Positions 9,001 to 12,000 of a stretch of 64,000 bases of DNA are shown in pieces. Source of the DNA: an uncultured Patescibacteria group bacterium. Its GTDB lineage: Bacteria; Patescibacteriota; Microgenomatia; UBA1400; PJMF01. Positions within the stretch are counted from its first letter, which is position 1. Each line of letters opens with the position of its first letter. The stretch is from NCBI GenBank assembly GCA_905478415.1, contig CAJQIG010000002.1:250699-314698 (forward strand). The letters run 5' to 3'. A program made the position numbers.

Positions 9001-12000
9001 TTAGTTTATTGTAACAAAGTATATTATATAATATTACTATGGGTTTTTCAACCAGGCAAATAGTTTGAAAGAGAGGTATGTTTATTCTTCTGACGAAAGC
9101 TCTTCCTGCTCAAGCGCATAAAAAGCAGCTTGTAAGTCAGTCAAAAGCTTGGTTAAGTCACCCTCAAGTATAAACGGCAAATTGTGCCAAGATTCTTTAA
9201 TTCTGTGGTCAGTAATTCTATTTTGAGGGAAGTTATAGGTGCGAATTTTTTCAGCACGTTGAGCTCGGCCAATGGCACTGCGGGCTTTACCGAGTTCTTT
9301 TTGCCGTTTCTCTTCTTCGATTTCCCAGAGTTGAGAGCGGAGGAGATCCATGGCTATTTTTCGGTTTTGTTCTTGTTTTTTTTCTTGTCGACAGGTGGTA
9401 GCGATACCAGATGGTTTATGGACTAGACGAACCGCACTATTAGTTTTATTCACACTTTGACCGCCAGCTCCGCTAGCACGCATAAACTGCCATTCGATAT
9501 CTTCGGTACGTATTTCTATGGCGTTGGTTGGAACTTCTGGTAACACAGCCACTGAGGCGGTTGAGGTGTGGATTCTACCTGAAGACTCGGTCTCTGGTAC
9601 ACGTTGGACACGGTGAACTCCAGACTCATACTTGAACAGTTCGTAGGCGGTAATGTAGGGTGTTTCTCCATCTGGATTTTCAATTTCAGTGATTTTACCT
9701 TTGGTTTTGAAAATGAGATCGTCGATGTGTTCAACCTTAATATTCATTTTTTCAAAAAACCTCAAGTACATTCGTTTGAGGTCATTGGCCCAAATTTTGG
9801 CTTCGTCACCACCAGCACCAGGGCGAATTTCGAAAGTGCAGTTAATTTTTTCGGCAAAGCTTTCTTCGCTCTCTTCGCTGCCTTGTTCCATTTGGAGAAC
9901 GGCATCAGTGAGTTGTTTCAGTTGGGCTTCGAGGGCAGTGACTTCAACTTTGGCAAGTTCGGCAAAGTCTGGATCTTCCAGAAGAAGCTTGGTATCTACA
10001 ATCTTTTCTTCGAGCTGAGTGATTTGTGCTTGATAGGGATTTTGCATGTTATTTATACCAAAAGTATACCAGGTGTTGGCCGAGAACCACAGAGAAGAGT
10101 AAGGGAGAAGAATCTAGGCTGCTTTTTCAGCTTTTTTGAGCTCAACTTGTTGCTGACGAAGAATATCTTTGTAAGATTTTGATTCGTCAGTGGTTTTTTC
10201 AGCTTTTTTGCCAGTTTTCTTACCAGCTTTTGCTGCTTTTTTAGCTTCAGCAACTTGCATCTTCTTTAAGAATTTATCAACACGTCCTTGACGGTCAACA
10301 AAGCGGACTTCACCAGTAAAGAATGGATGACACTTGCTACAGATATCTACCTCGAGCGTTTCTTGAACAGAACCTACGGTAAAAGTATTACCACAGGAGC
10401 AGGTTACCTGTGCGTTTGGATGCCAATTTGGATGAATGCCTTGTTTCATAGACAGTTATTTTACCATGAAAAGAAAAGATCTCAAGCCCCGAGTGTTATT
10501 TGAGGTGTGGTATATTGACTATAGTACAACAGAAGGAAAGGAAACCCATCGATTTTTTACATAGAGCGTGTGATCCTGTGGTTCTCCCCATAGGAAGACG
10601 AGGAAGAAGGGTGGAGTGCAATCTGCAACCACAATCGAACCGCTTTCCAAGAAAGCGAGTATCTGCGGAAACCTTCTGGCTAGTAACGGAGCCAATAAAG
10701 AGACAGTTCAAACCTTTTCTGTAAAGAAAAGTTTAAAGAGTGTCTTAGTTACATTTTTCAATACAAATAAAAAAATATGTTTGGGTACTGTTATGGTGCT
10801 TGTTTTGAGCAATAATTTTGTTCGATAGGCAGCGTGCTCAGATGTCTTTTGCGAACAAAAAGAAAGAAATATATGTGTGGAATATATGGATATATAGGAA
10901 TAAATAAGCATGATGATGCTGCAAAAAAAGTAGTTGAAGGTTTGGGACGTCTCTCCTATAGAGGATATGATTCTTGGGGAGTGGCCGAGCTGACAGATTC
11001 GGGAATTCTGGTAAAAAAGGATGTAGGAGAGGTGCCAACCAAAAAGCCAGCTGGATTAGGAGCGTCTGCTGTGGCAATTGGACATACCCGGTGGGCGACT
11101 CATGGTGGTGTTACTCGAGGAAATGCGCACCCCCATGCTGCTTCAGATGGTTCGTTTGTTTTGGCCCAAAATGGGATTGTCGAAAACTATGTTGAGCTCA
11201 AGGCTCAGCTAAAGCCACAGTTCAAGTTTAAAACCCAGACAGATACCGAAATTATCGTACGATTACTTGAGAAGGAGAAGAAAAGCGCTGCAACTCTGAG
11301 AGAAGCTCTCAGAGCTACATTCCTACAGCTCGAAGGCAGAAATACCGTCATTGTATTGGCTGATGATGGAACAATGGTGACCGCCAGGAATGGTTCTCCA
11401 CTCGTTGTTGGCCGTGGAGCTAAAGGCGCACTCTATTTTTCGTCTGATACACTCTCATTTGCGGGCGAAGTCTCCGAAGTTTTGGTAGTCGAAAATGGCC
11501 AAATGGTCGAGTGGAACGGATCTGACCTTACAGTCTATGCATTAGATACAGGTGAAGCTGTTCCTCTCAAGTTTGAGAAGTTGACCGTAGTCGCTCAAAA
11601 GGCTGATAAAGCTGGGTATGACCACTTTATGCTCAAAGAAATTCACGAGTCTCCAGATGTTTTATCTCAGGTAGTGGCTCAGGATTTGGTTGGGATGAAA
11701 GAGTTAGCACGAGTGATTGATACAGCCCGGACAGTGTATACACTGGGTTCTGGAACCGCTGGAATTGCATCTGCACAAATTGCTTACTATCTTAGAAAAA
11801 TAGGAAAAGTGAATACAATTAGTCTAATTGGTGCAGAGGCGCAAAGTTACTATGACTTATTTGGTCCGGGAGACGTAATACTCGCTCCCTCACAAAGTGG
11901 AGAGACGGCAGATGTTCTTGAAGTTTTAGAGCTTGCACAAGAGAAGGGGGTACAGATTGCTACCTATGTAAATATGTCCGGTTCCATGATGACGCGTATG

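What the first reader, a model, noticed from the sequence alone, without database searches (positions are those of the whole stretch)
10555..10760. Probable glmS ribozyme in the 5' leader of glmS
The 420-nt gap between rpmE and glmS carries, in the right order, sequence blocks matching the conserved glmS ribozyme core. These are GACGAGGA, AUCGAA, CGGAAACCUUCUGGCU (canonical CGGAUGCCUCCCGGCU) and UUCAAACC. The upstream GAAGG can pair with the downstream CCUUC. It replaces the canonical GGAGG/CCUCC P2.1 pairing with compensatory changes, which supports a conserved structure. A lineage-specific perfect hairpin (cgctttc CAAG gaaagcg) is inserted where other glmS RNAs have a variable stem. The ORF track places only short, overlapping, RBS-less ORFs on both strands here, which is typical of structured RNA. 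Every piece of evidence is hand-matched from memory of the consensus.
Basis: partly seen in the sequence, partly recalled or inferred. Interest (0 to 1): 0.6.

Follow-up and report, generated by a model that had tools for sequence, protein, structure and literature searches.

The report
glmS ribozyme with two extra hairpins
The stretch upstream of the glmS gene is a genuine glmS ribozyme, a well-known self-cutting RNA switch that senses glucosamine-6-phosphate; this copy comes from a candidate-phyla-radiation bacterium and has two extra hairpins in its catalytic core.

Summary
Rfam RF00234 (glmS ribozyme) matches window 10554-10756 (+) over the full model at 56.5 bits (gathering score 37, E 2e-10).

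The element ends about 120 nt upstream of an intact glmS gene (ATG 10873, MCGIYGY...). The genome is a CPR/Patescibacteria bacterium; the nearest genome is a Candidatus Pacebacteria MAG.

A lineage-specific covariance model found the same element upstream of glmS in 50 related loci. Every nested helix covaries (88% of cells paired, against 37-47% for slid controls). The P3.1 pseudoknot is supported by permutation. P2.2 shows one-sided and compensatory changes. Every position I could check whose single mutation abolishes cleavage keeps its wild-type base.

- GAAGG/CCUUC is P2, not P2.1.
- The hairpin is CGCUUUC-CAA-GAAAGCG.
- A second inserted hairpin (10611-10632) was missed.
- The two hairpins sit in the two short loops of the core double pseudoknot.

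This expanded core is common among the relatives, and Rfam misses the five closest ones. Ligand-dependent cleavage and RNase J-mediated decay are inferred, not shown. Verdict: a new member of a known kind, of modest interest.

The parts
10508..10516 (+). Candidate extended -10 promoter element TGGTATATT (TGnTAnnAT). It would put the transcription start near 10523, about 42 nt before the cleavage site.
   Evidence: The motif is conserved in 5 of 6 clade members in alignment A5. The two-hexamer scan found no promoter on the + strand, so this is an inference only.
10565..10566 (+). Predicted scissile bond between A(-1) 10565 and G1 10566 (AUAGA|GCGUGUG).
   Evidence: cmscan aligns the consensus aA|GCGCC to this site. 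A|GCG is invariant or nearly so in the 46 aligned relatives. Cleavage itself was not tested.
10567..10572 (+). P2.2 5' strand: C2 G3 U4 G5, bulged U6, then G7. It pairs with 10663-10667 as C10567:G10667, G10568:C10666, U10569:G10665, G10570:U10664 and G10572:C10663.
   Evidence: The P2.2 register is taken from PMC7125110 (C2-G56 to C5-G53, bulged position 6) and PMC10810187 (C62 and C65 lie in P2.2). In relatives, U4:G becomes C:G or U:A, and G5:U becomes A:U.
10574..10595 (+). P1 hairpin: 8 bp (10574-10581 with 10588-10595) and loop UUCUCC.
   Evidence: It appears in the minimum-free-energy fold. All 7 modelled pairs show changes on both sides, and 94% of cells are paired (helix 3).
10597..10604 (+). 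Core strand GACGAGGA. A10598, C10599 and G10600 correspond to B. subtilis A37, C38 and G39. C10599:G10637 and G10600:C10636 form P2.1.
   Evidence: The block is exact. ACGAGG is invariant in the relatives. The pair assignment comes from PMC11602151. P2.1 never varies (helix 4), so covariation says nothing for or against it.
10606..10610 (+). P2 5' strand GAAGG, pairing with CCUUC at 10672-10676.
   Evidence: helix 5: 4 of 5 pairs change on both sides (GC, AU, GU) and 92.5% of cells are paired.
10611..10632 (+). Extra hairpin A: GUGG..UGCA-AUC-UGCA..CCAC. It is inserted between the P2 5' strand and the P2.1 3' strand, where compact ribozymes have 1-3 nt.
   Evidence: It appears in the minimum-free-energy fold. 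Its base helix has 4 of 4 pairs changing on both sides (helix 6). Its length varies from about 11 to 51 nt among relatives and it is absent in about 14 compact loci.
10634..10639 (+). AUCGAA. C10636 and G10637 are the P2.1 3' strand. A10638 corresponds to B. subtilis A56, which pairs with U61 (window U10662).
   Evidence: The block is exact. UCG is invariant in alignment A3. The residue mapping uses PMC11602151.
10641..10657 (+). Extra hairpin B: CGCUUUC-CAA-GAAAGCG. It is inserted in the loop between P2.1 and P2.2, which is 3-4 nt in compact ribozymes.
   Evidence: All 6 modelled pairs change on both sides and 95% of cells are paired (helix 7). Within the clade, G:C becomes A:U and U:A becomes G:C.
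10661..10671 (+). AUCUGCGGAAA: the P2.2 3' strand (C10663-G10667), then G10668 (B. subtilis G67) and A10669 (A68). AA at 10670-10671 replaces the consensus UG.
   Evidence: AUCUGCGG is nearly invariant among the relatives. G56 and G57 of the T. tengcongensis core (here G10667 and G10668) are positions whose mutants do not cleave (PMC7125110), and both are retained.
10672..10676 (+). P2 3' strand CCUUC.
   Evidence: helix 5.
10677..10694 (+). P3 hairpin: UGGCU/AGCCA, with loop A-GUAAC-GG.
   Evidence: All 5 pairs change on both sides and 98% of cells are paired (helix 8).
10700..10746 (+). P4 (10700-10705 with 10741-10746), the A-rich internal loop IL4 (UUCAAAC and UUUAAAGA), P4.1 (10714-10720 with 10725-10731) and the GNRA tetraloop GUAA (10721-10724).
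   Evidence: Helices 10 and 11 have all pairs changing on both sides, with 92-95% of cells paired. The conserved A residues are visible in alignment A3.
10748..10752 (+). P3.1 3' strand GUUAC, pairing with the P3 loop GUAAC at 10683-10687 (pseudoknot).
   Evidence: Each loop's complementarity to its own tail averages 5.1 bp, against 3.7 bp with tails from other loci, and 0 of 5000 permutations reach the observed mean. The 5-bp match in the window is not significant on its own (p about 0.3).
10873..12648 (+). glmS: glutamine--fructose-6-phosphate aminotransferase, 591 aa, N-terminal Met-Cys.
   Evidence: Pfam hits to GATase_6, GATase_7 and two SIS stretches. There are thousands of homologues, several named as this enzyme.

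Best explanation
Window 10554-10756 (+) encodes a glmS ribozyme, the glucosamine-6-phosphate (GlcN6P)-dependent self-cleaving riboswitch, in the 5' leader of the glmS mRNA of a CPR/Patescibacteria bacterium. The RNA folds into the standard architecture: P1, the core double pseudoknot P2/P2.1/P2.2, and the peripheral P3/P3.1/P4/P4.1 domain with a GNRA tetraloop. It carries two additional hairpins in the two short connecting loops of the core. By analogy with Bacillus, when GlcN6P (the product of GlmS) accumulates, it binds the preformed pocket and acts as a cofactor for cleavage between A10565 and G10566. The downstream glmS mRNA is then left with a 5'-hydroxyl and is degraded by a 5'-to-3' exonuclease of the RNase J type, which lowers GlmS synthesis as negative feedback. 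What is shown here is family membership by covariance model, position, covarying helices and a conserved core. What is inferred is ligand identity, cleavage and the decay pathway.
For: Rfam RF00234 matches over its full length at 56.5 bits against a gathering score of 37, E 2.2e-10. It is the only such hit in the 64 kb, and my own model R1 likewise gives a single hit in the window. The element is on the glmS strand, about 120 nt before an intact glmS gene. The minimum-free-energy fold reproduces P1, P2, P3, P4 and P4.1, with z = -3.2. Homologous elements lie immediately upstream of glmS in 46 of 84 sources searched and in 4 of 4 further close relatives. Across 51 pairs, 88% of cells are paired against 37-47% when partners are slid, 43 pairs change on both sides, and 0 of 500 shuffles reach the observed values. 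P3.1 is supported by permutation, 0 of 5000. P2.2 shows U:G to C:G or U:A, and G:U to A:U. Positions whose single mutants abolish cleavage (G1, C2, G3, A27, C28, G56, G57 in T. tengcongensis core numbering; PMC7125110) all keep the wild-type base here. The mechanism in Bacillus (cleavage followed by RNase J1 decay) is described in PMC10810187.
Against: There is no experimental test of cleavage or ligand dependence. The window departs from the consensus at P2.2 (GCGUG instead of GCGCC, with U4:G and G5:U wobble pairs) and has CGGAAACC instead of CGGAUGCC. Single changes at the 5-53 pair are strongly deleterious in the T. tengcongensis core, although that pair is poorly conserved in nature (PMC7125110). 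The two inserted hairpins lie in the catalytic core and their effect on folding is unknown. The covariation alignment A4 was fitted to my model's structure, and 16 of its 46 rows were seed sequences, so the pair counts lean towards that structure. No RNase J gene was seen among the large ORFs of the window, and the rest of the genome was not available.
Confidence: 0.93

Rival explanations
1. The element is a real descendant of the glmS ribozyme but has a changed output or ligand response in this lineage. It might, for example, cleave constitutively, respond to a different amino-sugar, or regulate without RNase J-type decay, because of the expanded core and the altered P2.2 and 3'-core nucleotides.
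For: The expanded core with two extra helices is common in this lineage. GCGUG/UGCGG and CGGAAACC replace the consensus in most relatives. The leader downstream of the ribozyme carries a clade-conserved hairpin, plus a window-specific alternative hairpin close to the start codon, which could add another layer of control. RNase J could not be checked.
Against: All the nucleotides I could map to the active site or cofactor pocket are unchanged. The element always sits upstream of glmS, which fits feedback by the pathway product. Compact and expanded versions share the same core sequence.
Confidence: 0.05
2. The element is an inactive relic: a decaying ribozyme that still resembles the family but no longer functions.
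For: The Rfam score of 56.5 bits is moderate, and the five closest relatives fall below the gathering score.
Against: The core is almost invariant across relatives whose GlmS proteins are only 38-76% identical. Helices are kept through many compensatory changes, which indicates purifying selection on structure. The low Rfam scores are explained by the insertions: every miss I could parse has the expanded core. The lineage-specific model scores these loci at 105-162 bits.
Confidence: 0.015
3. The match is chance similarity in an AT-rich intergenic region, or the region encodes a small protein rather than an RNA.
For: Short ORFs of 58-74 aa overlap the region on both strands.
Against: The E-value is 2e-10. 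Relatives conserve structure rather than any reading frame, because hairpin A differs in length by amounts that are not multiples of three. Covariation is strong.
Confidence: 0.005

Closest known systems
glmS ribozyme / GlcN6P riboswitch (Rfam RF00234; Bacillus subtilis, B. anthracis and Thermoanaerobacter tengcongensis representatives)
   Same: It has the same position in the glmS 5' UTR and the same A|GCG cleavage-site context. It has the same core strands (ACGAGGA, AUCGA, CGG) and the same helices P1, P2, P2.1, P2.2, P3, P3.1, P4 and P4.1, including the GNRA L4 tetraloop and the A-rich IL4 loop. It scores above the family's gathering score.
   Different: A hairpin of about 22 nt (10611-10632) replaces the 1-3-nt linker between P2 and P2.1. 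A 17-nt hairpin (10641-10657) sits in the P2.1-P2.2 loop, which is normally 3-4 nt. P2.2 uses U4:G and G5:U wobble pairs in place of C:G and C:G. The 3' core reads CGGAAACC instead of CGGAUGCC. The host is a CPR/Patescibacteria bacterium, whereas the review I read describes the class as regulating glmS 'in many Gram-positive bacteria' (PMC5473149).
Compact glmS ribozymes of related uncultured bacteria
   Same: They share the lineage-typical A|GCGUGUGG and [U/A]ACGAGGA and mostly AUCUGCGG. CGGAAACC is kept in L036 and L037, while L064 has CGGGCACC and L077 has CGGAUGCC. They have the same P3 and, in most of them, the same P4 layout. They lie upstream of GlmS proteins 44-55% identical to the window's.
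   Different: They lack both inserted hairpins, with core loops of 1-4 nt, and they score higher with Rfam (70-81 bits).

Membership tests
glmS ribozyme (RF00234) | The covariance-model score reaches the curated gathering score over the full model. | tested here: met
   56.5 bits against 37, E 2.2e-10, model positions 1-167 of 167, window 10554-10756 (+).
glmS ribozyme (RF00234) | It lies in the 5' leader of glmS on the coding strand. | tested here: met
   The element ends at about 10753-10756 and the glmS ATG is at 10873. GlmS has GATase and SIS domains. The arrangement is the same in 50 related loci.
glmS ribozyme (RF00234) | The cleavage-site context A|GCG and the catalytic and cofactor-pocket nucleotides are conserved. 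These are G1, C2, G3, the ACG of GACGAGG, the CG of AUCGA, and the GG after P2.2. | tested here: met
   All are present with wild-type identity. They include every position whose single mutant is listed as non-cleaving in PMC7125110. The residue mapping uses PMC11602151.
glmS ribozyme (RF00234) | The nested helices P1, P2, P3, P4 and P4.1 are supported by covariation. | tested here: met
   In one search, helices 3, 5, 8, 10 and 11 have 92-98% of cells paired and nearly all pairs change on both sides; slid controls give 37-47%. Caveat: the alignment was fitted to the model.
glmS ribozyme (RF00234) | The core double pseudoknot, part 1: P2.1. | tested here: inconclusive
   Complementarity is present (C10599:G10637 and G10600:C10636), but both pairs are invariant in all 26 sequences with letters at those columns (helix 4). 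There is therefore no covariation for or against.
glmS ribozyme (RF00234) | The core double pseudoknot, part 2: P2.2 with a bulged nucleotide at position 6. | tested here: met
   The pairs are C2:G, G3:C, U4:G and G5:U, with U6 bulged, then G7:C. Relatives show CG, UG and UA at pair 4, and GU and AU at pair 5, with 91% of cells paired. Some distant relatives fit better with the bulge shifted, as discussed in PMC7125110.
glmS ribozyme (RF00234) | The P3.1 pseudoknot forms between the P3 loop and the tail 3' of P4. | tested here: met
   In the window, GUAAC (10683-10687) pairs with GUUAC (10748-10752). Across 42 distinct loci, own-pair complementarity averages 5.1 bp against 3.7 bp for cross-pairs, and 0 of 5000 permutations reach the observed mean.
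glmS ribozyme (RF00234) | It has the L4 GNRA tetraloop and the A-rich internal loop IL4 that packs on P2.1. | tested here: met
   GUAA lies at 10721-10724. The IL4 strands UUCAAAC (10707-10713) and UUUAAAGA (10732-10739) align to the consensus uauAAAa and gACAaAGu. The A residues are conserved in alignment A3. The tertiary contacts themselves were not tested.
glmS ribozyme (RF00234) | It self-cleaves in a GlcN6P-dependent manner. | not testable with these tools
   This requires an in-vitro cleavage assay.
glmS ribozyme (RF00234) | The 5'-OH cleavage product is degraded by an RNase J-type exonuclease, repressing glmS. | not testable with these tools
   The mechanism is known for B. subtilis (PMC10810187).

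The most novel reading that the evidence does not exclude
glmS ribozymes of the Microgenomates-type CPR bacteria may form a structurally distinct 'expanded-core' subclass that has not been described. Helices are inserted into both connecting loops of the catalytic double pseudoknot (P2 to P2.1 and P2.1 to P2.2), turning the compact core into a multi-helix junction. These come with a wobble-rich P2.2 (U4:G, G5:U) and AA in place of UG after the cofactor-pocket residues. The subclass is partly invisible to the Rfam model, which missed 14 of 43 tested loci, including all five closest relatives of this window. If so, it would offer a natural test of how much the core topology of this ribozyme tolerates. 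It would also mean glmS feedback by ribozyme is under-annotated in CPR genomes.
Probability: 0.35. Interest if true: 0.4.

Novelty: new member of a known kind. Interest (0 to 1): 0.25.

Why it matters
This finding mainly validates an annotation. A CPR bacterium with a small genome keeps the classical ribozyme-based feedback on GlcN6P synthesis, which feeds cell-wall precursor supply. The class is usually described for Gram-positive bacteria, so this extends its documented reach.

The practical point is that relatives with hairpins inserted in the core fall below Rfam's gathering score. Standard pipelines will therefore under-report the element in these lineages, and a lineage-aware model recovers them.

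For ribozyme specialists, natural variants with helices inserted into both loops of the double pseudoknot could inform folding studies. The family, mechanism and regulatory logic are otherwise already well established.

Tried and rejected
1. I accepted cmscan's nested alignment at first, which shows a single 45-nt insert in the 'P2 loop' with UGGA/UCUG as the inner helix. I rejected it after comparing relatives and mapping published pairs. The conserved AAUCGA block is the P2.1 3' strand, and the 'insert' is really two separate hairpins flanking it.

2. Rfam on the closest genome (L001) gave no glmS hit even at E<=10. This first suggested the element was absent there. Reading the sequence and searching with my own model (143 bits) showed it is present.

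3. The column-wise count for P3.1 on alignment A4 looked poor at 41% paired. That is an alignment artefact of unaligned loop and tail columns. The per-sequence test with cross-sequence permutation supports P3.1.

4. MAFFT alignment of all 25 leaders misplaced the compact versions, so I restricted the seed to 16 full-architecture sequences.

5. My regex parsing mis-assigned a few cleavage sites and insert lengths (L017, L020, L026, L034, L042). Those rows are not used for conclusions.

6. Organism naming through cluster members gave no names. The lineage is inferred from the nearest genome and from named GlmS homologues.

7. The literature probe found no open paper that mentions glmS ribozymes together with CPR, Patescibacteria or Microgenomates. 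The reference consensus paper (McCown 2011) and the Ferre-D'Amare 2010 review are not held. I therefore could not check whether core insertions of this kind were already described.

8. The two-hexamer promoter scan found nothing on the + strand upstream of the ribozyme. Only a conserved extended -10-like motif was found, by alignment.

9. I looked for an RNase J gene among seven ORFs of 439-922 aa (plus glmS, rpmE and the two ORFs downstream of glmS) and found none. Ten of the 17 ORFs of 330 aa or more, including the 1542-aa one, were not scanned. This is not informative for the whole genome.
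Full report

Yes.
- GACGAGGA at 10597-10604
- ATCGAA at 10634-10639
- CGGAAACCTTCTGGCT at 10666-10681
- TTCAAACC at 10707-10714
- GAAGG at 10606-10610, facing CCTTC at 10672-10676

rpmE (10449..10114, minus strand; Pfam Ribosomal_L31) and glmS are divergent. The intergenic gap is 423 nt. The true glmS start is ATG 10873, because the protein must begin Met-Cys (MCGIYGY). GlmS has the expected GATase and twin SIS domains.

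The hairpin exists, but it reads CGCUUUC-CAA-GAAAGCG (10641-10657). The version with a CAAG loop is not in the sequence.

**2. The decisive test**

A scan of the whole window against Rfam 15 at gathering thresholds returns three hits: two tRNAs and RF00234 (glmS ribozyme). The glmS hit is at 10554-10756 (+), at 56.5 bits against a gathering score of 37, E 2.2e-10, covering model positions 1-167 of 167.

The minimum-free-energy fold of that stretch independently reproduces P1, P2, P3, P4 and P4.1. It is more stable than dinucleotide shuffles (z = -3.2).

**3. Where the window comes from**

The GlmS protein is 76% identical to that of a Candidatus Pacebacteria MAG (L001). The next named homologues are from Levybacteria, Daviesbacteria and Curtissbacteria. 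All of these are CPR/Patescibacteria of the Microgenomates group.

The exact protein occurs on metagenomic contigs of up to 658 kb with the same prfA-rpmE / glmS arrangement. I therefore treat the window as a Pacebacteria-like CPR genome. This is an inference from nearest relatives, because no rRNA gene is present in the window.

**4. Relatives and a lineage-specific model**

L002 and L003 have the Rfam hit upstream of glmS. L001, the closest genome, does not, even at E<=10. Reading its sequence shows an obvious homologue: A|GCGUGUGG ... UACGAGGA ... AAUCGAAC ... AUCUGCGGAAACCUUC.

I collected 80 metagenomic glmS loci with a GlmS alignment and triaged their leaders by motif. I aligned 16 leaders that share the window's architecture (A3) and projected the window's helices onto the alignment. 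From that I built covariance model R1.

R1 finds one hit in the window (10555-10759, 161.9 bits). It finds 46 hits in 84 sources, all on the glmS strand and just upstream of the gene. It also hits all four further close relatives fetched by exact-protein look-up, at 105-142 bits.

**5. Structure, tested by covariation**

On the 46-sequence alignment A4 I counted 51 pairs. The pseudoknots among them were not part of the model.
- 88.0% of cells are standard pairs, against 37-47% when the 3' partners are slid by 1-3 columns.
- 43 pairs show changes on both sides.
- 0 of 500 shuffles reach any of the observed measures.
- P1, P2, P3, P4 and P4.1 each have 92-98% of cells paired, and almost every pair changes on both sides.

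Caveats: the alignment was fitted to the model's structure, 16 rows were seed sequences, and the shuffle control ignores phylogeny. The slid-partner control and the number of distinct pair types make the result robust all the same.

**6. The pseudoknots**

Published B. subtilis numbering gives the P2.1 pairs as C38-G55 and G39-C54, with an A56-U61 pair (PMC11602151). C62 and C65 lie in P2.2 (PMC10810187). In T. tengcongensis core numbering, P2.2 runs from C2-G56 to C5-G53 with a bulged position 6 (PMC7125110).

Mapped onto the window:
- P2.1 is C10599:G10637 and G10600:C10636.
- P2.2 is C10567:G10667, G10568:C10666, U10569:G10665 and G10570:U10664, with U10571 bulged, then G10572:C10663.

GAAGG/CCUUC is P2, not P2.1. 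I reach that by elimination from the published pair lists, so it is an inference.

P2.1 never varies, so covariation is uninformative for it. P2.2 varies in an informative way: pair 4 is U:G in 29 sequences, C:G in 4 and U:A in 2, and pair 5 is G:U in 29 and A:U in 1. Some distant relatives (GCGGCUGG or GCGACUGG with AUCAGCGG) fit better with the bulge shifted to position 4. Bulge shifts of that kind are discussed in PMC7125110.

That paper also notes that the 5-53 pair is poorly conserved in natural ribozymes. The window's G5:U is therefore within known natural variation.

P3.1 in the window is GUAAC (10683-10687) with GUUAC (10748-10752). Column counts were misleading at 41% paired, because the loop and tail are unaligned. 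Per sequence, 43 of 46 loci have at least 4 complementary bases at the equivalent place, with different sequences in different loci. A cross-sequence permutation gives 5.1 bp against 3.7 bp, with 0 of 5000 permutations reaching the observed mean.

**7. Catalytic nucleotides**

PMC7125110 used ten non-cleaving single mutants as controls: G1C, G1U, C2G, C2A, G3C, A27G, C28G, G56C, G56U and G57C. The corresponding window positions all carry the wild-type base: G10566, C10567, G10568, A10598, C10599, G10667 and G10668.

The window also keeps the following:
- A(-1) at 10565
- G10600, the equivalent of B. subtilis G39
- A10601, the equivalent of A40
- the GNRA tetraloop GUAA at 10721-10724
- the A-rich IL4 strands

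**8. What is unusual**

Two hairpins are inserted in the core.
- Hairpin A (10611-10632: GUGG..UGCA-AUC-UGCA..CCAC) lies between the P2 5' strand and AAUCGAA.
- Hairpin B (10641-10657) lies between AAUCGAAC and AGUAUCUGCGG.

Both covary. Helices 6 and 7 have all pairs changing on both sides. Within the six-member clade, G:C becomes A:U and U:A becomes G:C in hairpin B.

Among the ribozyme-bearing loci there are two classes. About 14 are compact, with both loops 1-4 nt as in the canonical ribozyme. About 26 or more are expanded. L011 has only hairpin A and L039 has only hairpin B.

cmscan lumps the window's two hairpins and the AAUCGAA block into one 45-nt insert.

Rfam at gathering score detected 29 of the 43 R1-positive loci that I tested. 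It missed L001 and L089-L092, the five closest relatives of the window. Every miss I could parse belongs to the expanded class.

Other lineage traits:
- Most relatives have U or A in place of the first G of GACGAGGA; the window keeps G.
- Most relatives have CGGAAACC in place of CGGAUGCC.

**9. The rest of the leader**

The six closest leaders share TGnTAnnAT (window TGGTATATT, 10508-10516) about 50 nt upstream of the cleavage site. This is a plausible extended -10 promoter. The two-hexamer scan found nothing on this strand.

Downstream of the ribozyme the clade conserves three features:
- a GGGU motif at about 10784-10787
- a small hairpin, GAGCAA 10807-10812 with UUGUUC 10818-10823, which has compensatory changes
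- AGAAAG just before the ATG

The window alone can also pair UUUUGUUCG (10816-10824) with CGAACAAAA (10852-10860). I did not pursue these features.

**10. Mechanism**

The best-supported explanation is the established one. GlcN6P binds the preformed pocket and acts as a cofactor for cleavage at A10565|G10566. The 5'-OH glmS mRNA is then removed by an RNase J-type exonuclease, as for RNase J1 in B. subtilis (PMC10810187). This gives negative feedback on GlmS.

Shown here: family membership, position, covarying architecture and a conserved core. Inferred: ligand, cleavage and decay. RNase J could not be assessed. None of the seven ORFs of 439-922 aa that I scanned is one (ten of the 17 ORFs of 330 aa or more were not scanned), and the rest of the genome is not available to me.

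**11. Comparison and novelty**

This is a member of RF00234 by every computational criterion I could test. The instance and its lineage extend a family that the review I read describes as regulating glmS in many Gram-positive bacteria (PMC5473149).

No open paper in the held library links glmS ribozymes with CPR lineages. The key consensus paper (McCown et al. 2011) was not readable. I therefore cannot say whether core insertions like these were already catalogued.

I rate it a new member of a known kind. There is a modest chance, about 0.35, that the expanded-core form is an undescribed structural subclass.

**12. Verdict**

Interest is low to modest (0.25). The practical lesson is that Rfam under-detects the expanded-core relatives.

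Noticed in passing
L001 1189-1401; L089 879-1097; L090 884-1088; L091 881-1049; L092 179-395: The five closest relatives of the window's ribozyme all score 105-143 bits with the lineage model but fall below Rfam RF00234's gathering score; L001 gave no glmS hit even at E<=10. Overall, 14 of 43 tested loci were missed, and every miss I could parse has hairpins inserted in the core.
   Followed up: partly
window 10757-10872: The leader between the ribozyme and the glmS start has a clade-conserved GGGU motif (about 10784-10787) and a small hairpin, GAGCAA 10807-10812 with UUGUUC 10818-10823, that shows compensatory changes in relatives. In the window only, the UUGUUC strand can instead pair with CGAACAAAA 10852-10860, 12 nt before the ATG. 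AGAAAG (10861-10866) is conserved just upstream of the start codon. The function of these features is unknown.
   Followed up: partly
window 10508-10516: TGGTATATT matches a TGnTAnnAT motif conserved in 5 of 6 clade leaders about 50 nt upstream of the cleavage site. It is a candidate extended -10 promoter that the two-hexamer scan does not report.
   Followed up: partly
window 10578-10591 and 10647-10651: The apical part of P1 (GUGGUUCUCCCCAC) and the hairpin-B loop region (CCAAG) are invariant across the six-member clade, although the GlmS proteins are only 66-76% identical. This could reflect a tertiary contact, but it is unexplained.
   Followed up: no
L002, L003 (CAZQAU010000007.1, CAYMOO010000006.1): Two MAGs labelled 'uncultured Gammaproteobacteria' carry a GlmS 52-54% identical to the window's and an expanded-core glmS ribozyme of the same type. 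A homologue labelled Pseudomonadales (P0089) is 71% identical. These taxonomic labels look doubtful.
   Followed up: no
L091 ~1010-1049, L092, L011, L018, L021, L038: Several related ribozymes have a reduced peripheral domain. L091 and L092 have a compact P4/P4.1, and L011, L018, L021 and L038 have a single short P4 hairpin. They still keep complementarity between the P3 loop and the 3' tail.
   Followed up: no
window 12733-13449 and 13430-14206 (+): Two ORFs directly downstream of glmS (238 and 258 aa, acidic and charged) have no Pfam match. The same two genes follow glmS on other contigs that carry the identical GlmS.
   Followed up: no
window 28306-28389 (+) and 57198-57271 (-): Two tRNA genes were found by Rfam. 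The first has a long variable arm.
   Followed up: no
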